Made by a program: the position numbers and the translations under genes
The notes under the pieces: generated by a model
Database searches by the model: none
The model's input: the letters and a program-made list of their open reading frames with translations, nothing else
Told to the model about the DNA's origin: nothing
Assembly: GCA_964571855.1 (NCBI GenBank)
Contig: CAZNDO010000018.1
Coordinates: 3,886-67,885 of the forward strand
Length of the DNA: 64,000 nucleotides
Direction: 5' to 3'
From: an uncultured Gemmatimonadota bacterium
GTDB lineage: Bacteria; ARS69
Shown: positions 6,668 to 55,424 of the stretch, piece by piece
Layout: every line of letters starts with the position of its first letter
Numbering within the stretch: the stretch's first letter is position 1

Positions 6668-6670
6668 GCC

Positions 6671-11878: not shown

Positions 11879-12061
11879 GGCGGCTCCTTCGAGGGGTCCG
11901 GGCCCCGCGGGGAGCCTCCTCCCCGCGCGCGCCCGTGACCGGTTCGAAGGGGATACCTCGAAGGCCCCGCGCCTATTCCGGGCTCTGGGGGGAATGACGG
12001 CAAACGCCATCCGGGCCTAGACTTGCGGCGTGGAATGCCGCGAGCCCTTCCGGGGTAGGGA

Positions 12062-12628
12062 GTGAGGATGCGCGAACTCGCCAGGGATCCCGCGGAAGAG
12101 CCCACGGACGGCGAGCTCGTGCGGCTCGCGAAGCGCGGGGACCGGCACGCGTTCGGCCGCCTCGTGCGCCGGCACCAGCCGCGCGTGTTCGCGCTGGGCC
12201 TGCGCTGGCTGCGCAACGCGGACGACGCGGACGACCTGGTGCAGGAGACGTTCGTGCGCGCATGGCAGGGGCTGGCCCGGTTCGACGAGTCGCGGCCGTT
12301 CGCCCCGTGGGTGGTCACGATCGCGGTGAACCGCGCGAAGACGCGGCTGGCGCGGGCGCGGCCGCTGGACGAGGTGGACGAGTCCGTGCCGTGGACCGGA
12401 CCGTCGCCGGAGGAGGGCGCGGAGCGAGCGCTGCTCGCCCGCGCGGTGCACGCGGCGGTGGACGCGCTGCCGGAGGAGCAGCGGATCGTGCTGCACCTGC
12501 GGGCCGTGGAGGACCTGTCGTACCGCGAGATCGCGGAGGCGCTGGGGATCCCGGCGGGAACGGTGATGTCGAGACTGTCGCGGGCGCGGGAAGCGCTGCG
12601 GAAGTCGCTCGGAGGGGCTGCGCCATGA
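12062..12628 (+). CDS. ECF-family RNA polymerase sigma-70 factor
   Basis: Sigma-70 region 2 (DLVQETFVRAWQGLARF) and region 4 HTH (LSYREIAEALGIPAGTVMSRLSRAREAL) are present, at ~185 aa. Confidence 0.9.
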   Translation: MRMRELARDPAEEPTDGELVRLAKRGDRHAFGRLVRRHQPRVFALGLRWLRNADDADDLVQETFVRAWQGLARFDESRPFAPWVVTIAVNRAKTRLARARPLDEVDESVPWTGPSPEEGAERALLARAVHAAVDALPEEQRIVLHLRAVEDLSYREIAEALGIPAGTVMSRLSRAREALRKSLGGAAP

Positions 12629-32296: not shown

Positions 32297-32443
32297 CGGA
32301 AGACCTCTCCTTCGAGTGGACGCTGCCTGGCGCGTCCGAGGCCCACCAATCTACCGCGGGTCCGGGGCGGGGAGGAAGGGATCCCGGACGGAAGGGGAAC
32401 GGCCCGGAAACGGGCCTGGAGAGGCCCCTGGGGCCCGCCGGAC

Positions 32444-33985
32444 CTAGAACCGCCACCCCGCCGACGCGTGGATCTGCGTGGTCTTCTCCGCCGCCCCCCG
32501 GCTCCGCTCCACGGACGCCAGCACCAGCCAGGACCGCCCGACCGCGACGTCGGTGTCCAGGGACACCCAGGTCAGGCGCGTGTCGGCCCCCGTGGCCGCT
32601 GCGTGCTCCCGCCGCTCGCCGAGCGACGCTCCCACGTGCGCCCGGTTCGTCACGTTCATCCCCACGGTCCCCGACAGCAGCCAGCCGTCCGTGCGATCGG
32701 AGGTGTACCGCGTTGTCCGCGTGCTGCCCGTCAGGCTGCGGAAGCGCGCGGTGCCGGCGCGACCGCGCAGCGTGTACGCGTTCGTGCCGCCGGAGGAACC
32801 GCCGCCTGCGCGGCGGAAGTCCGCCGCCACGGACGCGCGTCGCGCCGGGCGGTACTCCAGGCCGCTCCAGTAGCCGTTGCGGTAGGCGTCGTCGAAGTCC
32901 GTCTCCGGGGTCACGAGGTTGCGGTACAGCCGCACGTTGCGCCGCGTGTCCGCCCCGCCGTCCACGGACCACTTGTCCGCGAAGCGCCAGCGGGCGTTCA
33001 CGAGCGCGCTCGTCGCCGTGACCGCGTCCTCCCCCGCCTTCCGCTTCCACCCGCGGGCCAGGTCCACTTCCTGCACGGCGAACGCCTCCAGCTTCCCGCC
33101 CGACATCCGGCCCTGCAGCGCGAAGTACTCGCGGTCGATCGTGGACCCCGCGTACGAGCCCACGGCCGCCAGCGTGAGCCGCCACAGGCCGGCCCGTCCG
33201 CCGCTGCCGCCGCGCTCGATCCACACGCCGTGCTCGCGGATGTCCGTGGACGTCCCGAAGGAGCGCGGGTCCGGCTGGTACCCGAAGAACCCGCCGGTCC
33301 CCCAGCGCTCGCCGCGCCACTCGGCCATGACGCCGTCGAACACGCCGACCGAACTGAGCGACGTGGACACCTGCCGCCCGAGGGCCGCGTGCGCGCCGCC
33401 GGTGGGGCGGCCGTACTCCGCGAGCAGCCGGTACACGCGCGTGCGCCCGGTGTCCTCGTCCGGCCGGTAGGTGCGGCGCGCGCGCGCGTCCACGGACACG
33501 CGCCACTCCCCCGCCACGCGTCCGTCCGCGCGCACGTCCACGCCCGGCTCGGAGTACCCGCGATCCAGGGACGACCCGTCCACGAGCCCCAGGTACCGCA
33601 CGTCGATGCGGCCGCGGAGCGGTCGGTCCCGCCGCGACGTCCGCGGCTTCGCCTCGGGCTTCGGCGCCTCGTCCACCACGGGCTCGCCCGCGCGCACGGG
33701 GCGGAAGGTGACGGCATCGCCCACGCGGATCTCCGCGTCCGGCTCCACGCGCCGGCAGGACGCGCGTTTGGACGACAGCGCGGTCACCTCGAGCCACGTC
33801 ACGAGCAGTCCCTCGCGGCGCACCTCGACCACCTCGCCCTTCGCCAGACCGGCCTCCGTGCCGGCGTCCACGTACACCGTGGTGGTCGTGACATAGCTGA
33901 CGGCGGCGCGAACGGTCTCCGCCGCGCGGGACGGGACCGCCGTGGCGAGCAGCACGGCGAGGGCGAGAGCGACGGCGCGCGGCAT
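32444..33985 (-). CDS. Outer-membrane beta-barrel protein (513 aa) translationally coupled to the upstream multihaem cytochromes; a putative porin component of a cytochrome conduit
   Basis: The signal peptide is MPRAVALALAVLLATAVPSRAAE. There are abundant amphipathic beta-strands rich in R, Y, W and G. The C-terminus is ...SAGWRF with a terminal Phe, the OMP beta-signal. The start ATG overlaps the upstream stop (ATGA). Confidence 0.7.
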   Translation of the reverse strand: MPRAVALALAVLLATAVPSRAAETVRAAVSYVTTTTVYVDAGTEAGLAKGEVVEVRREGLLVTWLEVTALSSKRASCRRVEPDAEIRVGDAVTFRPVRAGEPVVDEAPKPEAKPRTSRRDRPLRGRIDVRYLGLVDGSSLDRGYSEPGVDVRADGRVAGEWRVSVDARARRTYRPDEDTGRTRVYRLLAEYGRPTGGAHAALGRQVSTSLSSVGVFDGVMAEWRGERWGTGGFFGYQPDPRSFGTSTDIREHGVWIERGGSGGRAGLWRLTLAAVGSYAGSTIDREYFALQGRMSGGKLEAFAVQEVDLARGWKRKAGEDAVTATSALVNARWRFADKWSVDGGADTRRNVRLYRNLVTPETDFDDAYRNGYWSGLEYRPARRASVAADFRRAGGGSSGGTNAYTLRGRAGTARFRSLTGSTRTTRYTSDRTDGWLLSGTVGMNVTNRAHVGASLGERREHAAATGADTRLTWVSLDTDVAVGRSWLVLASVERSRGAAEKTTQIHASAGWRF

Positions 33986-35271
33986 CAGTGCCTCCCGTCC
34001 GGATGGCAGCGGTAGCAGGCCGCGCTGTTGTACGCGTACCCGGGTTCGCCGCGGTGCTTGTTGTCCACCTCGCTGCGATTCGAGTGCTCGTGGCACAGGA
34101 TGCACTCGAACACGGCGTAGTTCGCGGGCGCCACGTGGCAGTCCGCGCAAGCGGACCACTTCCCGCGATGCGTGCCGCTGTTGATCGGGAAGTAGCGGCC
34201 GTCGTGGTCGAACGTGGCGCCGTACCAGCCGGACGTGCCGTGGCAGTCGGCGCAGGACGTGGGGAACCCCGTGCCGGCGTGCGGCGGGTTCGTCGTGGCG
34301 TCGTACTCGCCGCGATGGCAGCCCACGCACTCGGGGGAGAGCGGTCCGATGGGTCCCGTGCCGTGGCAGGCCGCGCACTCGGCGCCGGCGTGCCGCCCCG
34401 TGAGCGCGAACCCGGTGACCGCATGGTCGAACGACGCGCCGTCCCAGCTCGCCGTCCCGTGGCAGCGTGCGCAGTCCGTGGGAAAGCCCACGGAGGCATG
34501 CGCCGGCGCCGTCGTGGCGTCGTAGTCCGCGCGGTGGCAGCTCACGCACTCCGCGGACACGCGCGCCGGCGGACCCTCGCCGTGGCACGACGCGCACTGC
34601 ACGCCGATGTGCGCACCGGTGAGCGGGAACGCGGTGGCGGAGTGGTCGAACGTGCCGCCCGCGAAGGACGACGTGGAGTGGCACCGCGCACAGTCCGTGG
34701 AGTACCCGCCCGCCACGTGGTCCGGGTTCTTCGCCGCCTGGTAATCCGCCAGGTGGCAGCCCTCGCACGTCTCCGCCGTCCCCGCGAAGCGCATGGCGCT
34801 CCCCGCCTGCGGCCGGTGGCAGGCCGCGCAGTCCGTGGTCAGGTGCGCGCCGGTCAGCGGGAACCGGCCGAGGCGATGCTGCCGCACGGCCTCCGCGCGA
34901 TCGATGAAGTCCCGCGTGGTGTGGCAGCGCGCGCAATCGATCCCCATCTCGCCCCGGTGCACGTCCTGGTGGCAGTCCGCGCAGCGGCTCCCGGACGTCT
35001 CCGCGAACTCCAGCGACGTGTGGCACAGGAGGCACGGCACGTCCTTGTGCGAGCCGTCCAGCGGAAAGCCGAACCGCGAGTGGTCGAACTCCGCGGTCGG
35101 CTTCGCCGGCGTCCACGACTCAGCCCGGTGGCACAGCGCGCAGTCCTGCTTGAAGGAACCGTGCGGGTTCGGCGTGGCCACCTGCGGCGTGACGGCCGCG
35201 GACGGCTCCGCGCCGCGGGCCGCCACGGGCAGGATCGCCATGACGAGAAGCACGGGCAGATGACGGAGCAT
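33985..35271 (-). CDS. Multihaem c-type cytochrome (16 CxxCH in 428 aa), secreted
   Basis: The signal peptide is MLRHLPVLLVMAILPVAARGA. Sixteen CxxCH motifs were counted. It is a paralog of the upstream 25-haem gene, and about 200 aa of the N-terminus are nearly identical. The start overlaps the upstream stop. Confidence 0.85.
   Translation of the reverse strand: MLRHLPVLLVMAILPVAARGAEPSAAVTPQVATPNPHGSFKQDCALCHRAESWTPAKPTAEFDHSRFGFPLDGSHKDVPCLLCHTSLEFAETSGSRCADCHQDVHRGEMGIDCARCHTTRDFIDRAEAVRQHRLGRFPLTGAHLTTDCAACHRPQAGSAMRFAGTAETCEGCHLADYQAAKNPDHVAGGYSTDCARCHSTSSFAGGTFDHSATAFPLTGAHIGVQCASCHGEGPPARVSAECVSCHRADYDATTAPAHASVGFPTDCARCHGTASWDGASFDHAVTGFALTGRHAGAECAACHGTGPIGPLSPECVGCHRGEYDATTNPPHAGTGFPTSCADCHGTSGWYGATFDHDGRYFPINSGTHRGKWSACADCHVAPANYAVFECILCHEHSNRSEVDNKHRGEPGYAYNSAACYRCHPDGRH
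34600..35190 (-). repeat. About 590-bp segment roughly 90% identical to 36535-37125. It is the shared N-terminal tetra/octahaem module of the 16-haem and 25-haem paralogous cytochrome genes.
   Basis: The two DNA stretches align by eye nearly base for base (for example cttcgccggcgtccacgactc[a/g]gcccggtggca[c/a]agcgcgcagtcctgcttgaaggaaccgtgcgggttcggcgtggccacctgcgg). Confidence 0.8.
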
Positions 35272-37274
35272 CACGACCTCCCGTCCGGGTGGCAGCGGTA
35301 GCACGCCGCGCTGTTGTAGGAGTACCCGGACTCCCCCTGGTGGTCCCGATCCACCTTCGCACGGTCGGAGTGCTGGTGACACAGGATGCACTCGAAGACC
35401 GAGTAGTTCGTGGGCGACACGTGGCAGTCCGCGCACGTGGACCACTCGCCGCGGTGCCGGCCGCTGTAGATCGGGAAGTACAGACCGTCGTGATCGAACG
35501 TGGCGCCGTCCCAGCCGGTCGTGCCGTGGCAGGCCGCGCAGTCCGTGGGGAACCCGGCGCCCGCGTGCGGCGGGCTCGTGGTGGCGTCGTACTCCGGGCG
35601 GTGACAATCCACGCACTCCGGCGACAGTGATCCGATCGGGCCCGTGCCGTGGCACGCGGCGCACTCGGCGGCGGCGTGCCGGCCGGTCAACGGGAAACCG
35701 GTGGAGGCGTGATCGAACGACGCGCCGTCCCAGCTCGCCGTCCCGTGGCAGGTGACGCAGTCCGTGGGGAATCCCACCGACGCGTGGCTCGGGGACGTCG
35801 TGCCGTCGTAGTCGGCGCGGTGGCACCCCACGCACTCCAGCGGCGGCGGGCCGGAGCCGCCGTGGCATTGCGCGCACGTCGCGATCAGGTGCGCGCCCGT
35901 CAGCGGGAATCCGGTGGTGGAGTGGTTGAACGTGGCGCCCGGCCACCCGGAGGTCCCGTGGCACGAGGCGCAATCCGTGGAGAAGCCCACCGCCGCATGG
36001 TTCGGATCCGTGCTCGCGTCGTACTCGCCGCGATGGCAGTCCACGCACTCCGGCGAGATCGACCCGATCGGCCCCGTGCCGTGGCAGGCCGCGCACTCCG
36101 GCCCCAGGTGGCGGCCGGTGAGAGGGAAGCCGGTGGACGCGTGATCGAACGACGCCCCGTCCCAGCTCGCCGTCCCGTGGCACGTCACGCAGTCGGTGGG
36201 AAAACCCACGGACGCGTGGCTCGGGGCGGTGGTGCCGTCGTAGTCCGCGCGGTGGCAGCCCACGCACTCGGACGGCGGCGCGCTGCCCGTCGCGCCGCCA
36301 TGGCAGTCCGCGCACGACGTCACGACGTGCGCGCCGGTCAGCGGGAAGCCCGTCCCGGCGTGGTCGAACGTGGCCGTTCCCCATGCGACGGTGGAGTGGC
36401 AGGACGCGCAGTCCGTGGGGAAGCCGACCGCGGCATGCGGCGGGTCGAGCGTGGCGTCGTAGTCCGCGCGGTGGCAGCTCGCGCACTCGGCGGACACCGG
36501 TCCCGGCGGGCCCTCGCCGTGGCACGCCGCGCACTGCACGCTCGTGTGCGCCCCGGTCAGCGGGAACGCAGTGGCGGAGTGATCGAATGTTCCGCCCGCG
36601 AACGACGACGTGGAGTGGCAGGCCGCACAGTCCGTGGAGAAGCCGCCGGCCACGTGGTCCGGGGACTTCGCCGCCTGGTAGTCCGCCATGTGGCAGCCTT
36701 CGCAGGTCTCCGACGTCCCCGCGAACCGCATGGCGCTCCCGGCCTGCGGCCGGTGGCACGCGGCGCAGTCCGTGGTCAGGTGCGCGCCGGTGAGGGGGAA
36801 GCGTCCCAGGCGGTGCTTGCGCACGGCCTCCGCGCGGTCGATGAAGTCCCGCGTGTCGTGGCAGCGAGCGCAGTCCATGCCCATCTCGCCGCGGTGCACG
36901 TCCTGGTGGCAGTCCGCGCACCGGCTCCCCGACGTCTCGGCGAACTCCAGCGACGTATGGCACAGGAGGCACGGAACGTCCTTGTGCGAACCGTCCAGCG
37001 GGAAGCCGGTCTTCGAGTGATCGAAGTCCGTGGGGCTCTTCGCCGGCGTCCACGACTCGGCCCGGTGGCAAAGCGCGCAGTCCTGCTTGAAGGAACCGTG
37101 CGGGTTCGGCGTGGCCACCTGCGGCTTCGCGGGTGCGGACCCGGACGCCGCGGCGCCCTCCCCGGCAGCGGACGAAGCCGCCGGCATCGCGGCGAGCGCG
37201 AGCGCCCCGGCTTGGACGGACAGGCGGAAGAGCAGGCGGACCGCGGGCGGGCGGCGGATCATGGCGAACCTCAT
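35271..37274 (-). CDS. Multihaem c-type cytochrome (25 CxxCH in 667 aa), secreted, built from repeated ~50-aa dihaem modules
   Basis: The signal peptide is MRFAMIRRPPAVRLLFRLSVQAGALALAA. Twenty-five CxxCH motifs were counted by hand. An internal near-identical ~144-aa tandem duplication is present. The start ATG overlaps the upstream stop (ATGA). Confidence 0.85.
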   Translation of the reverse strand: MRFAMIRRPPAVRLLFRLSVQAGALALAAMPAASSAAGEGAAASGSAPAKPQVATPNPHGSFKQDCALCHRAESWTPAKSPTDFDHSKTGFPLDGSHKDVPCLLCHTSLEFAETSGSRCADCHQDVHRGEMGMDCARCHDTRDFIDRAEAVRKHRLGRFPLTGAHLTTDCAACHRPQAGSAMRFAGTSETCEGCHMADYQAAKSPDHVAGGFSTDCAACHSTSSFAGGTFDHSATAFPLTGAHTSVQCAACHGEGPPGPVSAECASCHRADYDATLDPPHAAVGFPTDCASCHSTVAWGTATFDHAGTGFPLTGAHVVTSCADCHGGATGSAPPSECVGCHRADYDGTTAPSHASVGFPTDCVTCHGTASWDGASFDHASTGFPLTGRHLGPECAACHGTGPIGSISPECVDCHRGEYDASTDPNHAAVGFSTDCASCHGTSGWPGATFNHSTTGFPLTGAHLIATCAQCHGGSGPPPLECVGCHRADYDGTTSPSHASVGFPTDCVTCHGTASWDGASFDHASTGFPLTGRHAAAECAACHGTGPIGSLSPECVDCHRPEYDATTSPPHAGAGFPTDCAACHGTTGWDGATFDHDGLYFPIYSGRHRGEWSTCADCHVSPTNYSVFECILCHQHSDRAKVDRDHQGESGYSYNSAACYRCHPDGRS
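35477..36269 (-). repeat. Intragenic tandem duplication (2 x ~432 bp) inside the 25-haem cytochrome gene; each copy encodes a ~144-aa, 6-CxxCH module
   Basis: Protein residues 336-479 and 480-~600 are near-identical (ECVGCHRADYDGTT[A/S]PSHASVGFPTDCVTCHGTASWDGASFDHASTGFPLTGRH...). The corresponding DNA is visibly near-identical. Confidence 0.8.
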
Positions 37275-39031
37275 CCGGGGGATCCGGTGGACTGCGGGGT
37301 CCCGGCCACGTGGCAGGCCTCGCACGCGGTGGGCGCTCCCACCCACACCGCGCCGCGCTTCCCGTCCGGCAGGGTCCCCTCGGCGTGGCAGGCCGCACAC
37401 GCCACCTTCGCGTGGGCGCCGGCCAGCGGGAACTTCGTCTTCTCGTGATCGAAGCGGACGGCCGGCCGGAACGTGTCCGCGCCGTGGCAGACGCTGCACT
37501 CGTCCCCGCCCTTGCGCTTCGCGAACTGGCCGCCGTGCGGGTCCTCGTGGCAGTCCCGGCAGGCACGCGCCTTCTCCTGGAACGACAGATCCGGCCACGC
37601 CTTCGCGGTCCCGAGCAGCGTGGACTCCGGGTGCTTCGTCTCCAGGCCCTGGTGGCACAGGAAGCACGGCACGGCCGCGTGCGCGCCCTCCAGCGGGAAC
37701 TCGTACGCCGCGTGCGCCGCCGGGTCCACGCGGGAGGGCGCGAACGCCGCCGGATCGTGGCAGGCAAGGCACTTGTCGTCGGTGGCCCCGAGCGCCTCGC
37801 GATGCGGGTCCGCGTGGCAGTCCACGCACTGCATGGTCTGGAACCGCAGCAGCACGCCGGCGGTCCCGATGCGCTTCGCGTCCGGCAGGGGCGGCAGGTG
37901 CGCGCGCTGCGGTCCGTGGCACGCCTCGCACGCCGCCTTCTCGTGCGCGCCCTGCAGCGGGAAGCGCAGCGCCGCGTGGTCCGCCACCGTGAACTTCGCG
38001 GGGCGGAACGTGGTCACGTCGTGGCAGCTCTCGCAGCGCCCGCCGTCGGCGCGACGCGCGAGCTGCCCGCCGTGCGCGTCCGCGTGGCAGTCCGCGCACT
38101 TCGCGAACGCGGGCCGGAACCGGAAGGGCACCGCCGGGTCCTTCGAGGCGTGGCACTCCCGGCACGCGACCGCGCGGTGCTTCCCTTCCAGCGCGTACTT
38201 CGCCTTCGCGTGCCGCGTCACGTCGAACGTGGACGGCACGAAGCCCTCCACGCGGTGGCACGATTCGCAGTCCACGGCCGCGCCGGCGAGCGTGGCCTCG
38301 CCGCGGTGCGGATCCGCGTGGCAGTCCACGCACTTCGCGAATGCCGGCAGCACGTCGTAGCCGTCCTTGTGGCACTTCGCGCACTCCAGCGCGCGGTGCT
38401 TCCCGCGCAGCGGGTAGCGCGTCTTCTCGTGGTCGAACGCGCCCTGCACCACCTGCTTCCAGTCCGCGGTGGTGTGGCACTCCGTGCAGTTCGCGCCGAA
38501 GCGGTCCTTGTGCGGATCGGCGTGGCAGGAGAGGCACTGCGTCTCCAGGCCCAGCCGGGAGTCGTCCGCCACCCGGCCCTTGCGCTTCGCGAGGGCCGCG
38601 GACTTGCGCAACTCCGGGCGGTGGCACTTCGCGCACTCCAGGGACGCGTGCTTCCCGTCCAGCGCCCACCCGGTCTTCGCATGGTCGAAGGCGTCGTCGC
38701 CCGCCCACTCCACGAGCGGGAAGTCCACGCCGCCGTGCTCCACGTGGCACTCGGCGCAGGCGCCGGCCGCATCGCGCGCGTGGAAGCCGCGCCCGGCCTC
38801 GCGCAGCGCGGCGATCTCGCCGTGGCAGGAGAGGCACTGCGCGTCCACGCCCTTCTCCTTGATGCCGTGGCAGGCCAGGCAGTTCTTCACGCCCTCCAGG
38901 TCCGCGTGCGCGCGCGACAGCGGCCCCGGGGAGATCTGGCCCCGGGTCGGAGCGGCGGGCAGGAGGAAGGACACGGCCAACGTCATGACGATCGTCCGGA
39001 GCGGGCCGCCGCGCCGTCTACGCGGGAGCAC
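37271..39031 (-). CDS. Multihaem c-type cytochrome (20 CxxCH in ~586 aa), secreted
   Basis: Twenty CxxCH motifs are present (CLACH, CLSCH, CAECH, ...). A hydrophobic N-terminal signal (MTLAVSFLLPAAP) is present. Start is either the GTG at 39031 or the ATG at 38986. The stop overlaps the downstream start. Confidence 0.8.
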   Translation of the reverse strand: MLPRRRRGGPLRTIVMTLAVSFLLPAAPTRGQISPGPLSRAHADLEGVKNCLACHGIKEKGVDAQCLSCHGEIAALREAGRGFHARDAAGACAECHVEHGGVDFPLVEWAGDDAFDHAKTGWALDGKHASLECAKCHRPELRKSAALAKRKGRVADDSRLGLETQCLSCHADPHKDRFGANCTECHTTADWKQVVQGAFDHEKTRYPLRGKHRALECAKCHKDGYDVLPAFAKCVDCHADPHRGEATLAGAAVDCESCHRVEGFVPSTFDVTRHAKAKYALEGKHRAVACRECHASKDPAVPFRFRPAFAKCADCHADAHGGQLARRADGGRCESCHDVTTFRPAKFTVADHAALRFPLQGAHEKAACEACHGPQRAHLPPLPDAKRIGTAGVLLRFQTMQCVDCHADPHREALGATDDKCLACHDPAAFAPSRVDPAAHAAYEFPLEGAHAAVPCFLCHQGLETKHPESTLLGTAKAWPDLSFQEKARACRDCHEDPHGGQFAKRKGGDECSVCHGADTFRPAVRFDHEKTKFPLAGAHAKVACAACHAEGTLPDGKRGAVWVGAPTACEACHVAGTPQSTGSPG

Positions 39032-40451
39032 CGGCTTTCGCCTCCTCGAGCGGAATGGCCTTCGTGACCATGCGGATGCCCGCCTTCTCCAGGAACGCGG
39101 CCGGCGGCTCGCCGCCGATGCGCACGATCACGTCGTCGTTGGGGAGGGTGAGGACCTTGCCGCCGGCCTCGATCTCCACGGCGTCCGCGCGGATGGCCTT
39201 CACCGCGCTTTCGCGCAGGATCCGCACCTTCCCGTTGCGCTCGGCCTCCGCCAGCTTCTGCCGGTTGCGCTCCTTCGCGCGGTCGAAGTCCGCCTTGCGG
39301 TGGCTGAGCACGACCTCGGTGCCCTCCTGGTTCGCGAGGCCCAGCGCGGACTCCAGCGCGCTGTCCCCGCCGCCGACCACGAGCACCTTCCGGCCCTTGA
39401 ATTCCTCCATCTCCACGATGTCGTAGAAGACCTTCTCGGTCTCCTCCCCCGGCACGCCGAGGCGGCGCGGCGTGCCGCGCCGGCCGAGCGCCAGGATCAC
39501 GCGGCGCGCGCGCACCTCGAACCCCTGGCCGCGCACGGCGATGGACGCCCCTTCGCGCGCCACCTCCTCCACGCGCCGGTTCGACAGCACCGTGAGGCCG
39601 CTCTGCTCCACCATCGCCTCCCACACGGCGAGGAGCGTCTCCTTCGAGGCGTCCGCCACCCAAAGGTCCCCGTACAGCGGCACCTTGATCGGCTCCGCGA
39701 GCAGCAGCTTGTGGCGCGGGTACTTGCGGATCGTGTCGGCCAGGCTGCCCTGATCCAGGATCACGAAGTCCAGTCCCGCCTTGCGGGCGGTGAGCGCGGC
39801 GCTCAGCCCGGCCGGGCCGGAGCCCACGATCGCGAGGTCGTGCACGCTGCCGCACGCGCCGGTCCCGCACGCCTGCAGCTCGCGCGCCGCGTTCTCCGCG
39901 GCCACGCGGCCCTCGTTGATGGCGTTCTTGATGAGCCCGCGCCCGCCGAGCTCGCCCACGATGTACACGCCCGGCACGTTCGACTGGAAGTCCGCCTTCA
40001 GATCCGGCACGGTCACGCGGTGCACGGCCGCGCCCGTGGCGATCACGATGCCGCCCACCGGGCACGCCTCCGCGCACTTCCCGTGTCCCTTGCAGCGATC
40101 CTTCTCCACGATGGCCAGCTTGCCCTCGAGGCGGATGGCGCCGGGCTCGGGGCACACGGGGACGCAACAGCCGCAGCCCACGCACACGTCCGCGCGGACA
40201 ATGGCGTGCGGGGCCGCATCGTCGGCCGGCGCGGCGGCCGGGTCCGGGGCGGCCTCCACCTCGGCGGCGGCGATCTCGAACACCTGCATCGGGACGTCGC
40301 AACCGGGGCAGCGCGAGGCGCCCGCGGGGACCTCGCCGCCGCACCGGGGGCACGCGGTGCGCGGCCCGCCGCCCTTGCGGCGGATCTGCCACGCCATGAG
40401 CGCCGCGGTGAGGACGGCGAAGGCGACCGTCGCGAGGACGCCGGAGTTCAT
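39018..40451 (-). CDS. Membrane-anchored iron-sulfur flavoprotein: N-terminal TM helix, zinc-ribbon, 2x[4Fe-4S] ferredoxin domain and a thioredoxin-reductase-like FAD/NAD(P)-binding oxidoreductase domain
   Basis: The TM segment is VLATVAFAVLTAALMAWQI and the zinc-ribbon is CPRCGG..CPGC. Ferredoxin motifs CVGCGCCVPVCP and CKGHGKCAEACP are present. There are two Rossmann GxGxxG motifs (AIVGSGPAGL, VLVVGGGDSAL). The start ATG overlaps the upstream stop. Confidence 0.8.
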   Translation of the reverse strand: MNSGVLATVAFAVLTAALMAWQIRRKGGGPRTACPRCGGEVPAGASRCPGCDVPMQVFEIAAAEVEAAPDPAAAPADDAAPHAIVRADVCVGCGCCVPVCPEPGAIRLEGKLAIVEKDRCKGHGKCAEACPVGGIVIATGAAVHRVTVPDLKADFQSNVPGVYIVGELGGRGLIKNAINEGRVAAENAARELQACGTGACGSVHDLAIVGSGPAGLSAALTARKAGLDFVILDQGSLADTIRKYPRHKLLLAEPIKVPLYGDLWVADASKETLLAVWEAMVEQSGLTVLSNRRVEEVAREGASIAVRGQGFEVRARRVILALGRRGTPRRLGVPGEETEKVFYDIVEMEEFKGRKVLVVGGGDSALESALGLANQEGTEVVLSHRKADFDRAKERNRQKLAEAERNGKVRILRESAVKAIRADAVEIEAGGKVLTLPNDDVIVRIGGEPPAAFLEKAGIRMVTKAIPLEEAKAGAPA

Positions 40452-41404
40452 CAGCGCAGCCACGTGTCGCTGAACAGGATCGCCACCGCCACGTGCACCG
40501 CCACCGCGAGGAACGCCATGATCGCGAAGGGCATGTGGAACGCGTGCCACAACCGGAACACGCGGTTCGTGGCATCCAGGATGCGGATTTGCTGGCCGAG
40601 CGCCATCTCGCGGCGCGCGAGACGGGTGACCTTCCGCACCTCGCGCGCGTCGAACCTCCGCTTCGACGTGCGCATGCCCGCCTCGAGGCGATGCACGGCA
40701 CGGCGACGATCGAGGTCGTCGCGCAGCATGCGCCCGAGGGCACGCACCACGCCGCCCCGGGGCGCCACGTCCACCGGCTTCAGCAGCTCGAGGATCTCGC
40801 GCGGGTCCAGGCCGGTGGACTCCACCAGCGTGCCGAGGATCTCGCGGCGCTCCGCGGAGACCTGCTCGCGCGTGAGCTCCAGCCCGGCCCGCCCGCGCGG
40901 GATGCGCACGTACAGGTACCGGCCCACCACGCCCGAGCACGCCACCACGAGCATCGAGAAGTACCCGAGCCCGATGAGCCCCTCGAACCGGAACCCCGCG
41001 TGCACCGCGCCCGCCAGCGGCATCAGCACGCCGGCCACGATGTGCGCGTCCAGCCAGCGCGGGATGGGGCCGAGGAACGTGGCGGACGAGAGGCGCTTCC
41101 GCACCGGGTAGAGCCACAGGAAGGCGAACAGCGCGAAGGCCAGGAGGCCGGCGGACTGCCCCACGTACCCCGTGGGACCCAGCCACTCGTGCCAGGGATT
41201 GCGGAGCCGCTCCCCGAACGGCAGGGCGTAGTACGAAGCCCCCGCCGCCGCCACGAGCAGCAACGGGAACACGCCGACGAGCACCGCGCGCGGCACGAAG
41301 GGCGGCGCGACGGAGCGGACGGCCGGGGACGCCGGCTCGGTTGCCTTGGCCGGCTTCCCCGGCGCCGCACTTGCCCGCGGCGCCGCCAGTTCGGTGGTGG
41401 CCAT
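40451..41404 (-). CDS. Integral membrane protein with two conserved His pairs spaced 13-14 residues apart in TM helices; a putative di-haem b-type cytochrome / ferric-reductase-like electron-transfer subunit
   Basis: There are about 6 TM helices. The His pairs are AHIVAGVLMPLAGAVHAGF and HAFHMPFAIMAFLAVAVHV. It is the first gene of the operon. The start is taken at the internal ATG (MATTEL...); the upstream ATG at 41467 is the alternative. Confidence 0.5.
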   Translation of the reverse strand: MATTELAAPRASAAPGKPAKATEPASPAVRSVAPPFVPRAVLVGVFPLLLVAAAGASYYALPFGERLRNPWHEWLGPTGYVGQSAGLLAFALFAFLWLYPVRKRLSSATFLGPIPRWLDAHIVAGVLMPLAGAVHAGFRFEGLIGLGYFSMLVVACSGVVGRYLYVRIPRGRAGLELTREQVSAERREILGTLVESTGLDPREILELLKPVDVAPRGGVVRALGRMLRDDLDRRRAVHRLEAGMRTSKRRFDAREVRKVTRLARREMALGQQIRILDATNRVFRLWHAFHMPFAIMAFLAVAVHVAVAILFSDTWLR

Positions 41405-41550
41405 GCCCGTCGTCCCGTCCTCCCGTCGATGCAGGAACGTCCTCCCGCGTGTGCATTCTGCGACCACGCGGTGCGCAAAGAGGGCCCGGTCCCCCCCTTC
41501 GCGCCGGGCGGGATGTGGTGCCGCGACTCCGGAATTCCCCGAAAAGGGGG

Positions 41551-51518: not shown

Positions 51519-53090
51519 TCAGCGGCGGACCAGCACCCGGGCGACCGCCGTGGCCCCGGAGGCGGTCTCCGCCCGGAGGAAGTACACGCCGGGGGCGACC
51601 GGTCGGCCGGCAGCGTCGCGGCCGTCCCAGGCCACTTCCCCCGGCCCGCGGTCGTACCGCCCCCGGGCGAGGGTGGCCACGCGGCGGCCGGCGGCGTCGT
51701 GCACGGTGAAGTGGACGGCGGCGGCCTCCGGCAGCGCGAACGACAGCCGCGTGCCGGCGGCGGTCGGATTCGGGGCCGCCGTCAGGGTCATCCGCGACGG
51801 GTGCGCGGCCGGATCGTCCTCCCGCGCGGCCGGGGCCGGCGCCCGCTCGCGGACCTCGAACTCGTACAGGTGCGCCTCGTACGCCGCGAAGGAATCGGTG
51901 ATGCGCCCGCCCCGGATGGCGAGCGCGCGATCCTCGTGCACGACGACGGCGCGACCGTGGGGCCGCCGCGGGAGTTCGAACGTCACGTCCCCCGCGAAGC
52001 CGTTGCGCGACACGGCCACGAGCAGCGCGCTCCGGCCCGGGCCCTGCAGCACGCGGAAGTCCACCTCCGGCTCGCTGCACGACGCGCCCGGCAGGTCGGT
52101 CCCCACGAGGTACGGCGTGAGCGCCGCCACCTCCGACACGACCTGTCGGGTGATCGGCCAGTTCTCCTCTCCTCCGCCCAGCGCGTGGTACCAGGTCCAC
52201 CCGGCCCAGAAGATCCCCGTGGCCCCGTGCACCACGCTGGCCCACGCCTCCCAGCGCGCCTCCTTGAGCGGGATGCCCTTGTGCGCCTGGACGATCATCC
52301 ACAGCGGCTGCCCCGGGAGGTTCAGCTCCGAAAGGAAGAGGTCCGCCGCGGTGACCAGCCGATCCATCGGGCAGTCGGGATAGCCGAGCACGTTGAACGC
52401 GGTGCACGTTCCCGGCCCGGCCGGGTACGGGTAGCTCGCGAACATCACGACGTCCGTGGCGGTGGCGTAGGAGCCCACGTCCTGCTTCCAGTGCTCCAGG
52501 CTGCTGTCCGCCTGCGCGGGGGCATGGTTCATCGCGACCAGCGCGGACGGCGCGGCGGCGCGGAGTTGCGGATAGGTGTCGCGGACGTGCGCCTCGTCGA
52601 TGTCGCCGATCATGTCGCGGCTGATCGTCCACGACGGCTCATCCCGATTCGCGAACGCCACGACGCGCCCGGGATGCGCGGCGGCGCAGTCCAGCAGCGC
52701 GTCCAGCTCCGCCGTCTCGTACATCCGCTGATCCACCTCCAGCTCCGGCGTGCCGGGATCGTCCCAGTTCCACGTGTCCCCCGAGCCCACCAGCAGGTGC
52801 CACCCGCCCGCCTCGGCGGCCGCCAGCACGGCGGCGCAGGACGGCGTGGTGTCCGCGTACGCGATCTCGATGTCCCAGACGAAGTTCGCGCCGGACTCCG
52901 CGATGCGCGCCTCCCAGTCCGGATACCGCGGGCTGCCGAGATCCACGAGGCCCACCGGGAAGACCGGGGCGCCGTCGATCTCGAGCAGACCATCCGGGCG
53001 GATGGACGCCCCCTGCGCCGGGAATGCCGATGCCACCGCCACGGCCACCACGATGGCGGCGCGCGGAACGCGGGGAGACGACCGGGACAT
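51519..53090 (-). CDS. Secreted hypothetical protein (possibly a TIM-barrel glycoside-hydrolase-like fold) with a C-terminal sorting-type domain
   Basis: The signal peptide is MSRSSPRVPRAAIVVAVAVASAFPAQGAS. The C-terminal tail is LTAAPNPTAAGTRLSFALP...GVYFLRAETASG...RVLVRR. The start is chosen at the ATG beginning the signal peptide. Confidence 0.6.
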   Translation of the reverse strand: MSRSSPRVPRAAIVVAVAVASAFPAQGASIRPDGLLEIDGAPVFPVGLVDLGSPRYPDWEARIAESGANFVWDIEIAYADTTPSCAAVLAAAEAGGWHLLVGSGDTWNWDDPGTPELEVDQRMYETAELDALLDCAAAHPGRVVAFANRDEPSWTISRDMIGDIDEAHVRDTYPQLRAAAPSALVAMNHAPAQADSSLEHWKQDVGSYATATDVVMFASYPYPAGPGTCTAFNVLGYPDCPMDRLVTAADLFLSELNLPGQPLWMIVQAHKGIPLKEARWEAWASVVHGATGIFWAGWTWYHALGGGEENWPITRQVVSEVAALTPYLVGTDLPGASCSEPEVDFRVLQGPGRSALLVAVSRNGFAGDVTFELPRRPHGRAVVVHEDRALAIRGGRITDSFAAYEAHLYEFEVRERAPAPAAREDDPAAHPSRMTLTAAPNPTAAGTRLSFALPEAAAVHFTVHDAAGRRVATLARGRYDRGPGEVAWDGRDAAGRPVAPGVYFLRAETASGATAVARVLVRR

Positions 53091-53990: not shown

Positions 53991-55424
53991 TCAGGGCGCC
54001 ACGGTGATCCTCGCCGCCGCCGTGCGGCCCGCCGCCTCCAGGCGCGCGAAGTACACGCCCGCGGCCACGGGGCGGCCCGCCTCGTCGCGGCCGTCCCACG
54101 ACAGCTCCGCCGCCCCCGTGGCGGACGTCCGGGAGCCCAGCTCCCGCACGCTTCGCCCCGCCGCGTCCACGATGCGCGCGGACGCCGCCGCGCCGGCCGG
54201 CAGGCGGGCCGCGAGCAGGACCGGCGACCCGCGCCGCACCGGATTCGGCCGCGCCGGCCCGAGCGACACCACGGGCGCCTCCTGCGGCGCCGCCGGCACC
54301 GCGACGGCCGCGGCATTCGCCGCCGCCGGCGCCGCGCCGTCGTCCTCGAGCAGCTCCATCACGTACAGGCCACCCCCGATGTCGGACGCCACGAAGAGCC
54401 CCGGCGAGTCCGGGTAGTACGGGAACACGCCCCAGCAGCCCGCGAACGCCGGGATGTCGCCGCGCGGGAACGTGTCGTACCAGGCCACTTCCCGCATGTC
54501 CGCCGGGTCCGACACGTCCACGATCCGCACGCCCGCCGTGTACCAGGACACGTAGGCCAGCCGCCCCTTCACGTGGACGTTGTGCGGGATGCAGTACCGG
54601 CCGTTCGGCGGCTGCCACAGCCCGGCGAACTGCGGCGCGGCCGGATCCGAGATGTCCCACGCGCGCAGGCTGGCGCCGGAGCGCTCGTCCGTGGTGAGCA
54701 CGTGCACGCCGTCGCCGACCGGCCACGCGTTGTGCGTGAAGGCGCCCGGGTACGGCCCCACCTGGCCGAGGATCGCCGGCGTGGCCGGCGTGGAGACGTC
54801 CAGGAGGAAGAGTCGCGTCGCGTTGATGGCGGACACGTACGCCACGCCGTCCGCGGCGTAGACGTCGTGGGCGTACGCGCCGTCCCATCGCCCCGCCACC
54901 GTGGGCGCGGCCGGCGGCGCGAGATCCAGGATGAGGATGCCGCCCGTGCGGTCCCGCCCGGCGATGTACGCGCGCGCCGCCGCCTCGTCGATGTACAGGT
55001 TGTGCGCCGTGGTGAAGCCGCCCACCGTGGCGGCCGGCTGCGGCGCGGACGGGTCCGCGATGTTCACGACCTGCAGCCCGCCCCCGGCCTCGTTCACGAC
55101 GTACATGTACGAACCGTACGTCTTGATGTCCCGCCAGGCGGAGCCGGGCCCGGGAACGAACGACACCTCCACGGGCCGCCGGCGGTCCGTGATGTCGATC
55201 ACCGCCACGCCGTCGTACGCGCCGAGCAGCGCGTACTCCCGCCCGTCGGGCGCGGTCCAGCCCCAGATGTCGCTGTAGCTCGAGTGCTGGTCGAGGACCC
55301 CGTGGAGGGCGACGTTCTCCGCCGGGAAGCGCTCGGCACGGACCTCGGACGGCCCGGCGGACGCGGGAACGGGAAACACGACGGCGCCCAGTGCGGCGGC
55401 GCCGAGAACAGCCGGCCGGAACAT
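53991..55424 (-). CDS. Secreted beta-propeller protein of the choice-of-anchor-B / LVIVD-repeat type with a C-terminal sorting-type domain (paralog 1)
   Basis: It has a signal peptide and the conserved blocks YSDIWGWT, WRDIKTYG, AHNLYID, AFTHNAW and IPHN.H. The tail is ...AGVYFARLEAAGRTAAARITVAP. Confidence 0.7.
   Translation of the reverse strand: MFRPAVLGAAALGAVVFPVPASAGPSEVRAERFPAENVALHGVLDQHSSYSDIWGWTAPDGREYALLGAYDGVAVIDITDRRRPVEVSFVPGPGSAWRDIKTYGSYMYVVNEAGGGLQVVNIADPSAPQPAATVGGFTTAHNLYIDEAAARAYIAGRDRTGGILILDLAPPAAPTVAGRWDGAYAHDVYAADGVAYVSAINATRLFLLDVSTPATPAILGQVGPYPGAFTHNAWPVGDGVHVLTTDERSGASLRAWDISDPAAPQFAGLWQPPNGRYCIPHNVHVKGRLAYVSWYTAGVRIVDVSDPADMREVAWYDTFPRGDIPAFAGCWGVFPYYPDSPGLFVASDIGGGLYVMELLEDDGAAPAAANAAAVAVPAAPQEAPVVSLGPARPNPVRRGSPVLLAARLPAGAAASARIVDAAGRSVRELGSRTSATGAAELSWDGRDEAGRPVAAGVYFARLEAAGRTAAARITVAP

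What the first reader, a model, noticed from the sequence alone, without database searches (positions are those of the whole stretch)
32444..41404. Six-gene translationally coupled operon that looks like a complete inner-membrane-to-exterior electron conduit
Six minus-strand genes are joined by 4-nt ATGA overlaps at four of five junctions. In order they encode: a polytopic membrane protein with two bis-His pairs at haem-b-like spacing; a membrane-anchored 2x[4Fe-4S] ferredoxin fused to a thioredoxin-reductase-like FAD/NAD(P) oxidoreductase; three secreted c-type cytochromes with 20, 25 and 16 CxxCH motifs; and a 513-aa outer-membrane beta-barrel ending in ...WRF. The layout resembles known porin-cytochrome conduits (MtrCAB, Geobacter Pcc) but differs in two ways. 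The cytochromes are far more haem-dense (about 1 haem per 27 aa) and are built from tandem dihaem modules. The operon also carries its own cytoplasmic-side NAD(P)H/ferredoxin oxidoreductase and a b-type membrane subunit, so a whole NAD(P)H-to-extracellular-acceptor chain could be encoded in one transcript. I do not recognise this architecture as a described system.
Basis: partly seen in the sequence, partly recalled or inferred. Interest (0 to 1): 0.9.

Follow-up and report, generated by a model that had tools for sequence, protein, structure and literature searches.

The report
NAD(P)H-fed porin–cytochrome electron conduit (PCC3-like)
This is a real six-gene operon that most likely wires cytoplasmic NAD(P)H through a two-haem membrane protein and giant multihaem cytochromes to an outer-membrane barrel; it closely resembles the predicted but untested "PCC3" clusters, with an added, conserved cytoplasmic flavoprotein that points to an electron source other than quinol.

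Summary
The six minus-strand genes (32444-41404) are real. The haem counts (20, 25, 16), the four histidines in the membrane protein, the Fe-S/flavoprotein fusion and the barrel all check out. Two details are wrong. Only one junction is an ATGA overlap; three are TGATG. The cytochromes are built from 73-residue trihaem modules, not dihaem ones.

The cluster A-B-cytochrome(20/23 haem)-cytochrome(10-68 haem)-barrel recurs in nearly all 80 species genomes examined. These are Gemmatimonadota, Eisenbacteria, Krumholzibacteriota, Latescibacteria, Acidobacteriota and others. It also occurs in cultured Bacteroidota (an Emticicia oligotrophica plasmid, Aquirufa).

It is not undescribed. He et al. 2017 defined "PCC3" as porin + variable giant cytochrome + ~21-haem cytochrome + ~300-aa inner-membrane protein with SGxxG and two Wx3Hx13H motifs. 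Protein A carries exactly that signature. PCC3 is still functionally untested.

The addition here is gene B, adjacent in 76 of 80 loci. It is a membrane-anchored ferredoxin fused to a TrxR-type NAD(P)H flavoprotein. Proteobacterial plasmids pair a shorter A-like protein with an unrelated FNR-type NAD(P)H reductase. This argues for a NOX/ferric-reductase-like, quinone-independent outward electron path.

Verdict: new variant of a known (predicted) kind, and moderately to highly interesting.

The parts
40451..41404 (-). A: 317-aa inner-membrane protein, predicted dihaem b-type cytochrome. It has 5 TM helices and a ~100-aa cytoplasmic helical insert between TM4 and TM5. W117-x3-H121-x13-H135 lies on TM3, S157-G158-x2-G161 on TM4 and W286-x3-H290-x13-H304 on TM5.
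39018..40451 (-). B: 477-aa protein. In order it has an N-terminal TM anchor (N-out, body cytoplasmic by the positive-inside rule), a CPxCG..CPGC zinc-ribbon-like motif, a ferredoxin domain (CxxCxxCxxxCP and CxxHxxCxxxCP) and a TrxR/YpdA-type FAD + NAD(P)H domain that lacks the redox CxxC.
   Evidence: Pyr_redox_3 1.7e-40, Pyr_redox_2 2.6e-27, Fer4_21/Fer4_10. YpdA model TIGR04018 scores 150 bits against a cut-off of 340. PDB sequence hits are YpdA/Bdr 7a76 (3e-26) and TrxR-type ferredoxin-NADP reductases. Motif conservation was checked over 56 orthologues. B is adjacent to A in 76 of 80 loci.
37271..39031 (-). C: secreted 20-haem c-type cytochrome (571 aa from ATG 38986; probably 586 aa from GTG 39031). 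The mature N-terminus has the conserved SPGPLSxxHA motif. It is inferred to be the periplasm-spanning wire.
   Evidence: 20 CxxCH, 22 extra His and no free Cys. Cytochrom_c3_2 5.7e-23 and Cytochrome_C7 9.2e-22. The first cytochrome has 20 or 23 haems in 62 of 69 related loci. No solved-structure relative.
35271..37274 (-). D: secreted 25-haem cytochrome (667 aa) with a signal peptide and no lipobox. It contains five tandem 73-aa trihaem modules. It is inferred to be the variable-length distal (barrel-threading or extracellular) wire.
   Evidence: 219-nt repeat period. Cytochrome_C7 4.3e-27. The homologous second cytochrome ranges from 10 to 68 haems in related loci. Composition is A, G, S, T, H, C rich.
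33985..35271 (-). E: secreted 16-haem cytochrome (428 aa). It is a paralogue of D with two rather than five trihaem modules and is an extra copy specific to this lineage.
   Evidence: 69% identity to D, with near-identical N- and C-terminal parts. Module count. Most related loci have only two cytochromes.
32444..33985 (-). F: 513-aa outer-membrane protein. It has a signal peptide, a small conserved N-terminal beta domain (about residues 25-94), a disordered linker (100-119) and a 22-strand beta-barrel (123-512) ending in the invariant RF.
41405..41550 (-). 146-nt intergenic region upstream of A, after the NlpC/P60 gene. It is the presumed promoter region of the operon.
   Evidence: Sequence. 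No sigma-70 consensus was found, so the promoter is not identified.
32297..32443 (-). 147-nt intergenic gap between F and the downstream glutamate dehydrogenase gene. It is the presumed end of the operon.
   Evidence: No canonical intrinsic terminator was detected on the minus strand.

Best explanation
The operon encodes a PCC3-like porin-cytochrome conduit whose inner-membrane entry point is a split module resembling NADPH oxidase or ferric reductase.

Proposed path:
1. B sits on the cytoplasmic face, held by one TM helix. It oxidises NAD(P)H (or possibly reduced ferredoxin) at its FAD.
2. B passes electrons through its two Fe-S clusters. The second cluster has a conserved His in place of one Cys.
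3. The electrons reach the cytoplasmic-side haem b of A (His121/His290), cross the membrane to the periplasmic-side haem b (His135/His304) and enter C.
4. C is a 20-haem bis-His wire of nearly constant length, probably spanning the periplasm.
5. Electrons pass from C to D (and here its paralogue E). D is a chain of c7-like trihaem modules of very variable length that threads or caps the 22-strand barrel F and reaches extracellular acceptors such as Fe(III)/Mn(IV) minerals, humics or possibly O2.

Shown: gene content, cofactor motifs, barrel fold, topology signals and conserved synteny.
Inferred: cofactor occupancy, protein contacts, outward direction, surface exposure of D and the physiological acceptor.

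Because electrons would bypass the quinone pool, the path would act as a redox-balancing or assimilatory electron sink rather than an energy-conserving respiration.
For: (1) Conserved linkage. In 80 loci from different species genomes, A is followed by B (57 co-oriented, 19 divergent). In 44 of the 46 loci with at least 9 kb downstream it is also followed by a 20/23-haem cytochrome, a 10-68-haem cytochrome and F. The same cluster occurs in low-GC Bacteroidota: Emticicia plasmid pEMTOL02, Aquirufa and Saprospiraceae.

(2) A. Four invariant His sit as two H-x13-H pairs on parallel TM3 and TM5. This is the haem-b pattern of the ferric-reductase domain and of cytochrome b, as He et al. noted. The structural neighbours are dihaem four-helix bundles.

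(3) B. It has Fe-S, FAD and NAD(P) motifs, no redox disulfide and a cytoplasmic orientation.

(4) Independent replacement of the reductase. On Bradyrhizobium and Acetobacter plasmids, shorter A-like proteins (tblastn E 6e-5 against 7.3 Gb; 35-52 bits against the A profile) are flanked by an unrelated FNR-type reductase (FAD_binding_6 + NAD_binding_1 + Fer2) and a 7-haem cytochrome that shares C's SPGPLSxxHA start. Two different NAD(P)H flavoproteins paired with the same membrane-protein family points to a cytoplasmic pyridine-nucleotide input.

(5) Localisation. C, D, E and F have signal peptides; F is a 22-strand barrel with a terminal Phe.

(6) Length pattern. C is constant and D is variable. 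This fits a fixed periplasmic span plus a free distal wire.

(7) Direction (inference from standard potentials). NAD(P)H at about -320 mV to bis-His haems is downhill. The reverse, against an inside-negative membrane potential, is not.
Against: There are no experimental data for any member. PCC3 in Sideroxydans is 'functionally unverified' and was down-regulated on Fe(II).

- No A-B, A-C or C-D-F complex could be modelled.
- D has no lipobox or other surface-anchoring signal, so extracellular exposure is unproven.
- One locus with ample flanking sequence (L060) lacks B next to A.
- The published four-gene PCC3 clusters contain no B, so A-type proteins may work without it, for instance with quinones as He et al. 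proposed.
- Carriers include aerobic freshwater oligotrophs (Emticicia, Aquirufa), for which a dissimilatory role is not obvious.
Confidence: 0.55

Rival explanations
1. Electron uptake, the original PCC3 hypothesis. The conduit carries electrons inward from extracellular Fe(II) or minerals through D, C and A to the quinone pool. B is an accessory protein or a reverse-electron-flow partner.
For: He et al. proposed this for PCC3 in iron oxidisers and suggested that the inner-membrane protein is quinone-active. Multihaem wires are intrinsically bidirectional. One locus lacks B.
Against: B is adjacent in 76 of 80 loci, and a different NAD(P)H reductase takes its place in the proteobacterial mini-modules. 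Reducing NAD(P)+ from Fe(II) across an inside-negative membrane is strongly uphill (inference). PCC3 genes were down-regulated on Fe(II) in Sideroxydans ES-1. Most carriers here are heterotroph-like lineages.
Confidence: 0.15
2. A function confined to the periplasm. A and B deliver reducing power to periplasmic cytochromes that act as an electron store ('capacitor') or feed a periplasmic reductive or detoxifying reaction. F is a co-encoded porin or uptake channel, not a cytochrome sheath.
For: D and E have plain Sec signal peptides and no lipobox. The proteobacterial mini-modules have no barrel and sit next to copper-resistance genes. A capacitor role was suggested for giant Bacteroidota cytochromes.
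Against: F is conserved in 44 of 46 loci, lies directly after the last cytochrome gene and has an overlapping start/stop. A 22-strand barrel with no plug domain assigned by homology is wide enough to take a haem wire (inference). The free variation in D length (10-68 haems) is hard to reconcile with a space limited to the width of the periplasm.
Confidence: 0.17
3. A maturation role. A and B supply reductant for haem or apocytochrome thiols so that the very haem-rich cytochromes can be assembled. They are not the physiological electron input.
For: In Bacteroidota a fused ccsBA (system II cytochrome c biogenesis) gene lies directly upstream of A.
Against: A has no conserved Cys pair of the CcdA/DsbD kind but does have four invariant His. 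ccsBA is absent from the window and from most other loci. The mini-modules pair the A-like protein with a small 7-haem cytochrome that would not need dedicated machinery.
Confidence: 0.06
4. A known periplasmic nitrite, hydroxylamine or sulfur-oxyanion reductase system.
For: Only weak, sub-threshold hits to NrfB-like, HmcA and ExtN/ExtO models.
Against: No catalytic CxxCK haem or NrfA/HAO/octahaem family match. All hits lie far below the curated cut-offs. No solved-structure relative.
Confidence: 0.02

Closest known systems
PCC3 porin-cytochrome c gene clusters (He et al. 2017, PMC5566968; Gallionellaceae survey PMC9900912). Predicted from genomes only, in Alpha-, Beta- and Gammaproteobacteria; function untested.
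   Same: Collinear gene content: barrel, variable repeat-rich giant cytochrome, cytochrome of about 21 (21/24/27) haems made of ~66-aa trihaem repeats, and a ~300-aa inner-membrane protein. 22-39 aa per haem. A 22-strand porin in Leptothrix cholodnii. An inner-membrane protein with 5 TM helices, SGxxG on TM4 and Wx3Hx13H on TM3 and TM5 (compared).
   Different: The clusters here carry a fifth conserved gene, B (ferredoxin plus NAD(P)H flavoprotein), which is not part of the PCC3 definition. They occur in Gemmatimonadota, Eisenbacteria, Krumholzibacteriota, Latescibacteria, Acidobacteriota and Bacteroidota rather than Proteobacteria. The first cytochrome has 20 or 23 haems rather than 21, 24 or 27. 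Sequence homology to reference PCC3 proteins could not be tested.
NADPH oxidase / ferric reductase (NOX, FRE, FRO; Ferric_reduct PF01794 plus an FNR-like dehydrogenase domain), and MsrQ with Fre
   Same: The logic is the same: NAD(P)H to flavin, to two stacked b haems held by two His pairs on TM3 and TM5, to an acceptor on the far side of the membrane.
   Different: A gives no significant match to PF01794 (E 0.29). The reductase is a separate polypeptide of a different fold class (TrxR-like, with an added 2x Fe-S ferredoxin domain). The acceptor is a multihaem cytochrome chain rather than O2 or Fe(III).
MtrCAB / MtoAB (Shewanella, Sideroxydans) and Geobacter Pcc/Ext porin-cytochrome complexes
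   Same: The concept is the same: a periplasmic multihaem cytochrome inserted in an outer-membrane barrel and handing electrons to a distal cytochrome.
   Different: F does not match the MtrB/PioB family, and all cytochrome hits are far below the cut-offs (DmsE family 48 bits against 192). The barrel has 22 strands rather than 26. There are 20-68 haems per protein instead of 5-12. There is no lipoprotein cytochrome. Input comes from a flavoprotein/dihaem-b module instead of quinol dehydrogenases (CymA, ImcH, CbcL).
Polymeric c7-type 'nanowire' cytochromes such as Geobacter GSU1996 (from my own knowledge)
   Same: Tandem trihaem c7-like modules with bis-His haems.
   Different: No significant sequence match to any solved multihaem cytochrome. 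The module is 73 aa with its own FDHxxTGFPLTGxH signature. The copy number is far larger and more variable.
YpdA/Bdr bacillithiol-disulfide reductase and TrxR-type ferredoxin-NADP+ reductases
   Same: They are the best sequence and solved-structure relatives of B's flavoprotein domain.
   Different: The score is below the family cut-off (150 against 340 bits). B also has a TM anchor, a Zn-ribbon and a ferredoxin domain, and possibly a relocated 'GD' FAD motif.

Membership tests
PCC3 (He et al. 2017) | Outer-membrane beta-barrel (porin-like) gene in the cluster | tested here: met
PCC3 (He et al. 2017) | Inner-membrane protein of about 300 aa with 5 TM helices, SGxxG on TM4 and Wx3Hx13H on TM3 and TM5 | tested here: met
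   A is 317 aa. W117/H121/H135, S157-G158-x-x-G161 and W286/H290/H304 are invariant. Helix layout. Definition.
PCC3 (He et al. 2017) | 'Periplasmic' cytochrome of about 21-27 haems built of ~66-aa repeats, with 22-39 aa per haem | tested here: met
   C has 20 haems at 28.6 aa per haem. Orthologues have 20 or 23, compared with 21/24/27.
PCC3 (He et al. 2017) | Second, repeat-rich cytochrome with a large and variable haem number, enriched in A/G/S/T | tested here: met
   D has 25 haems, 73-aa repeats and A, G, S, T as its top residues. Orthologues have 10-68 haems.
PCC3 (He et al. 2017) | Extracellular location of the variable cytochrome | not testable with these tools
   Only a Sec-type signal peptide can be seen. 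No localisation predictor or experiment was available.
PCC3 (He et al. 2017) | Sequence homology to reference PCC3 proteins (e.g. Slit_0867-0870, Slit_1446-1449, L. cholodnii) | not testable with these tools
   No reference sequence could be obtained. The supplements hold images only, the plasmid collection has none, and the afdb50 fold library was unavailable.
PCC3 (He et al. 2017) | Four-gene composition, with no cytoplasmic reductase gene described | tested here: not met
   B is an additional conserved member in 76 of 80 loci. No FAD or NAD protein is mentioned for PCC3.
MtrCAB / MtoAB | MtrB/PioB-family barrel, DmsE/MtrA-family decahaem cytochrome, OmcA/MtrC lipoprotein decahaem cytochrome | tested here: not met
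   F has no family hit. TIGR03508 scores 48 bits against a cut-off of 192, and TIGR03507 scores 19 against 209. D and E have no lipobox.
NOX/FRE ferric-reductase domain (PF01794) | Significant match to the Ferric_reduct transmembrane domain with two His pairs on TM3 and TM5 | tested here: inconclusive
NOX/FRE | Fused FNR-type FAD/NADPH dehydrogenase domain | tested here: not met
   The reductase is a separate TrxR-type protein, B. An FNR-type partner is found only in the proteobacterial mini-modules.
YpdA/Bdr (TIGR04018) | Score above the curated cut-off; stand-alone flavoprotein of about 320 aa | tested here: not met
   150 bits against a cut-off of 340. B has extra TM, Zn-ribbon and Fer4 domains.
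Thioredoxin reductase | Redox-active CxxC in the NADPH domain | tested here: not met
   There is no CxxC between residues 205 and 477 of B. TIGR01292 scores 77 bits against a cut-off of 343.

The most novel reading that the evidence does not exclude
The A-B pair is a previously unrecognised, quinone-independent inner-membrane entry module for extracellular electron transfer. It would be a split, NOX/ferric-reductase-like NAD(P)H:multihaem-cytochrome oxidoreductase. Together with a periplasm-spanning 20/23-haem wire, a length-variable trihaem-module nanowire and a 22-strand barrel, it would let very many uncultured soil and sediment lineages, and aerobic freshwater Bacteroidota, reduce extracellular substrates directly from cytoplasmic pyridine nucleotides. 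It would also assign an electron source and a direction to the orphan PCC3-type inner-membrane proteins.
Probability: 0.45. Interest if true: 0.8.

Novelty: new variant of a known kind. Interest (0 to 1): 0.62.

Why it matters
From my own knowledge of the field, every characterised Gram-negative extracellular electron-transfer pathway starts at a quinol dehydrogenase such as CymA, ImcH, CbcL or CbcBA. A conduit fed directly by a membrane-tethered NAD(P)H flavoprotein through a dihaem b protein would be a different solution, closer to eukaryotic NOX/FRE enzymes. It would be a redox-balancing or assimilatory electron outlet rather than a classical respiration.

The cluster is very widespread:
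- at least 537 species genomes carry relatives of A;
- there are 3190 50%-identity clusters in the A superfamily;
- more than 7000 90%-identity clusters (cluster representatives) belong to the Bacteroidota branch.

It probably also accounts for the 'undescribed' giant cytochromes reported in activated-sludge Saprospiraceae.

It gives a testable hypothesis for the orphan PCC3 clusters of iron-oxidising Proteobacteria. Cultured carriers (Emticicia oligotrophica DSM 17448, with the cluster on a 100-kb plasmid, and Aquirufa) make the question directly testable.

Tried and rejected
- Pfam and NCBIfam give nothing significant for A or F.
- PDB sequence searches give nothing for C and only marginal c3/HmcA-type matches for D and for a profile of the trihaem module.
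- The afdb50 fold library, which might have linked A to named proteobacterial PCC3 proteins, was not available.
- I tried to obtain PCC3 reference sequences from paper supplements (images only) and from the plasmid collection. This failed, so direct homology to PCC3 remains untested.
Second-tier A homologues were named only as Krumholzibacteriia and Calditrichota.
- The promoter/terminator scan found no sigma-70 promoter and no minus-strand terminator around the operon.
- Rejected: a nitrite/hydroxylamine reductase system (no catalytic haem motif or family hit); an Mtr or Geobacter Pcc orthologue (sub-threshold scores, no lipoprotein); B as a thiol-disulfide reductase (no CxxC).
- The papers on peat EET clusters and on a coastal consortium describe other architectures.

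Full report
**Observation**

The window is 73% G+C, so long spurious ORFs occur in every frame. Their translations are:

| Gene | Coordinates | Length | Notes |
|---|---|---|---|
| A | 40451-41404 | 317 aa | membrane protein |
| B | 39018-40451 | 477 aa | Fe-S/flavoprotein fusion |
| C | 37271-38986 | 571 aa | 20 CxxCH |
| D | 35271-37274 | 667 aa | 25 CxxCH |
| E | 33985-35271 | 428 aa | 16 CxxCH |
| F | 32444-33985 | 513 aa | ends WRF |

Every cysteine in C, D and E lies in a CxxCH motif. The number of histidines outside the motifs (22, 26, 19) is close to the haem number, which fits bis-His ligation. The density is 26.7-28.6 residues per haem.

Two details in the finding are wrong:
- **Junctions.** Only C/D is an ATGA overlap. 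A/B and E/F are TGATG and D/E is GTGATG. C probably starts at GTG 39031. That start supplies a credible signal peptide and overlaps the end of B by 14 nt. All five junctions are then overlapping or tightly packed, which still fits translational coupling.
- **Repeat unit.** The cytochrome repeat is a 73-residue (219-nt) trihaem module, not a dihaem one. D has five modules and E has two, which accounts for the difference of nine haems.

E is a 69%-identical paralogue of D.

The flanking genes are housekeeping genes: gatCAB and NlpC/P60 upstream, glutamate dehydrogenase and a PPDK-like protein downstream. The six genes are separated from them by intergenic gaps of about 146 nt.

**The parts**

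*Protein A.* It matches no curated family. It belongs to a very large uncharacterised superfamily: 3190 clusters at 50% identity with E<=1e-3, and 348 with E<=1e-30.
- In an alignment of 50 homologues the invariant residues include W117, H121, H135, S157, G158, G161, W286, H290 and H304.
- The AlphaFold model (pLDDT 86.8) has five transmembrane helices and a ~100-residue helical insert between TM4 and TM5.
- The distribution of Arg and Lys puts the N-terminus, the TM2-3 loop and the insert in the cytoplasm (read from the sequence).
- TM3 and TM5 therefore run in parallel, with H121/H290 near the cytoplasmic face and H135/H304 near the periplasmic face. This is the geometry of a transmembrane dihaem b wire.

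*Protein B.* It has one N-terminal helix followed by RRKGGGPR, so its body is cytoplasmic.
- It has a zinc-ribbon-like CPxCG..CPGC and a ferredoxin domain.
- Its flavoprotein domain is related to YpdA/Bdr and to TrxR-type ferredoxin-NADP reductases, but it scores below every family cut-off and lacks the redox CxxC.
- Across 56 orthologues the second Fe-S motif is C-x2-H-x2-C-x3-CP, with the His conserved in at least 95%.

*Protein F.* It has 66 homologues, all labelled 'hypothetical'.
- Its model shows a signal peptide, a small conserved N-terminal beta domain, a disordered linker and a 22-strand barrel (pLDDT 84.7).
- The C-terminal Arg-Phe is invariant.

**Comparative evidence**

A scan of one genome per species found at least 537 genomes that encode a relative of A. 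The best 80 were retrieved with flanking sequence. By record title they are:

| Group | Loci |
|---|---|
| Gemmatimonadota | 37 |
| Eisenbacteria | 10 |
| Acidobacteriota | 10 |
| Krumholzibacteriota | 7 |
| Latescibacteria | 3 |
| Myxococcales / 'Deltaproteobacteria' | 2 |
| Binatia | 1 |
| unclassified | 10 |

All are metagenome-assembled genomes. I scanned these loci with profiles of A, B and F and with CxxCH counts:
- B lies next to A in 76 of the 80 loci (57 co-oriented downstream, 19 divergent upstream). Three of the four exceptions have A at a contig end.
- Of the 46 loci with at least 9 kb downstream of A, 44 contain F and 42 contain at least two large cytochromes.
- The first cytochrome has 20 or 23 haems in 62 of 69 cases.
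- The second cytochrome ranges from 10 to 68 haems.

Independent look-ups gave the same picture. The cluster also exists in low-GC Bacteroidota:
- Emticicia oligotrophica DSM 17448 carries it on plasmid pEMTOL02: ccsBA, then A, B, a 23-haem cytochrome, a 40-haem cytochrome and F. Profile E-values are 6.5e-58 for A, 1e-89 for B and 1.9e-42 for F.
- Aquirufa sp. has it with 23 and 37 haems.
- A Saprospiraceae MAG has it with a 1724-residue, 68-haem second cytochrome.

This last case probably explains the 'undescribed' giant cytochromes reported for activated-sludge Saprospiraceae.

**What is already known**

He et al. 2017 (PMC5566968) defined 'PCC3' in Proteobacteria:
- a porin;
- an 'extracellular' repeat-rich multihaem cytochrome (median 34 haems, up to 85, rich in T/S/A/G);
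- a 'periplasmic' multihaem cytochrome (median 21 haems, ~66-residue repeats);
- a conserved ~300-residue inner-membrane protein with five TM helices, SGxxG on TM4 and Wx3Hx13H on TM3 and TM5;
- 22-39 residues per haem.

They noted the likeness of the inner-membrane protein to the ferric-reductase domain and to cytochrome b. They proposed that it links to the quinone pool. Later work counts 21/24/27 haems for the periplasmic subunit and 10-35 for the other. That work still calls PCC3 functionally unverified, and in Sideroxydans ES-1 the genes go down on Fe(II).

The cluster here meets every published descriptive criterion, including the exact motif signature of the inner-membrane protein. I could not obtain any reference PCC3 sequence, so orthology is not proven.

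What is not in the PCC3 description is B.

**Mechanism**

The conserved adjacency of B suggests that A is reduced from the cytoplasm rather than from quinol. An independent observation strengthens this.
- On Bradyrhizobium BTAi1 and Acetobacter aceti plasmids, shorter A-like proteins sit between two other genes. Their similarity to A is supported by tblastn (E 6e-5 at database scale) and by scores of 35-52 bits against the A profile.
- On one side is an FNR-type reductase (FAD_binding_6 + NAD_binding_1 + 2Fe-2S) that is unrelated to B.
- On the other side is a 7-haem cytochrome whose mature N-terminus carries the same SPGPLSxxHA motif as C.
- He et al. listed this class as 'MHC + IMP + other redox protein'.

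Two unrelated NAD(P)H flavoproteins recruited to the same membrane-protein family is best explained by this chain: NAD(P)H, then flavin, then Fe-S, then haem b (inner), then haem b (outer), then multihaem cytochrome. This is the logic of NOX/FRE enzymes, split into separate polypeptides.

The constant length of C against the free variation of D fits a periplasm-spanning wire plus a distal wire that passes through or sits on the 22-strand barrel. An outward direction follows from standard potentials and the polarity of the membrane potential; this step is inference. Cofactor occupancy, subunit contacts, surface exposure of D and the acceptor are all inferred.

Because the path would bypass the quinone pool, I expect a redox-balancing or assimilatory role rather than an energy-conserving respiration. 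One candidate is reductive iron acquisition, which is what FRE does in yeast. This would also fit aerobic oligotrophic carriers such as Emticicia and Aquirufa.

**Rivals**

- Inward electron uptake into the quinone pool, the original PCC3 idea.
- A periplasm-confined store or reductase supply, with F as an ordinary channel.
- A maturation role for A and B, suggested by the adjacent ccsBA gene in Bacteroidota.
- A known nitrite or hydroxylamine reductase system, which is effectively excluded.

**Verdict**

The operon is real, strongly conserved and widespread. It is a new variant of a predicted but untested kind (PCC3-like) with an added conserved cytoplasmic reductase. It is interesting mainly because it points to a quinone-independent, NOX-like entry into an extracellular electron conduit, and because cultured, plasmid-borne examples make that testable.

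Noticed in passing
window 5222-9249 (+): A second, different trio that resembles a porin-cytochrome complex. It comprises an 8-haem cytochrome with a lipoprotein box (LLAAGC), a 508-aa secreted protein with no Pfam hit (possibly a barrel, not modelled) and a 12-haem cytochrome with sub-threshold MtrC/MtrF domain II/IV hits.
   Followed up: partly
L087 9394-12666 and 939-2455 (Bradyrhizobium sp. BTAi1 pBBta01); L088 7537-10259 (Acetobacter aceti plasmid); many Sphingobium/Novosphingobium plasmids: A three-gene mini-module that lies next to copper-resistance (multicopper oxidase / CopB) genes on conjugative plasmids. It comprises an FNR-type reductase (FAD_binding_6 + NAD_binding_1 + Fer2), an A-like 234-247-aa dihaem membrane protein and a 7-haem c3-type cytochrome. 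Its function is unknown.
   Followed up: partly
L086 8857-21441 (Emticicia oligotrophica pEMTOL02); L089 (Aquirufa); L090 (Saprospiraceae): In Bacteroidota the cluster is preceded by a fused ResB-CcsA cytochrome c biogenesis gene of about 1025 aa, and in Emticicia and Aquirufa it is followed by a GW-domain protein. In Emticicia the cluster is plasmid-borne, which suggests horizontal mobility. The Saprospiraceae second cytochrome has 68 haems in 1724 aa.
   Followed up: partly
window 39018-40451 (-), protein B residues ~115-126 and ~160-187: The second Fe-S motif is CxxHxxCxxxCP, with the His at least 95% conserved. This could mean a His-ligated [4Fe-4S] cluster or a [3Fe-4S] cluster. The strongly conserved segment VPGVYxxGELGGxGLIKNAxxEG precedes the GxGxxG and resembles the C-terminal 'GD' FAD motif of TrxR-type enzymes. 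That would suggest a circular permutation of the flavoprotein fold (the resemblance is from my own knowledge and was not tested).
   Followed up: no
window 33985-37274 (-): D and E share near-identical ends and differ by three 219-nt trihaem modules. Some modules within D are nearly identical at the protein level. Recent duplication, recombination, or assembly collapse or expansion in this repeat is therefore possible.
   Followed up: partly
L053, L054 (Gemmatimonadales MAGs): Some relatives carry a tandem second [cytochrome + F-like barrel] pair after the first. Others have three or four cytochrome genes (L022, L029, L056).
   Followed up: no
window 13797-14798, 51519-53069, 53991-55403: Several predicted secreted proteins end in a FlgD_ig-like domain, and one also has LVIVD repeats. 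This may be a lineage-specific C-terminal sorting or secretion domain.
   Followed up: no
window 12059-13806 (+): An ECF sigma factor and zf-HC2 anti-sigma factor pair about 27 kb from the operon. No link to the operon was shown.
   Followed up: no
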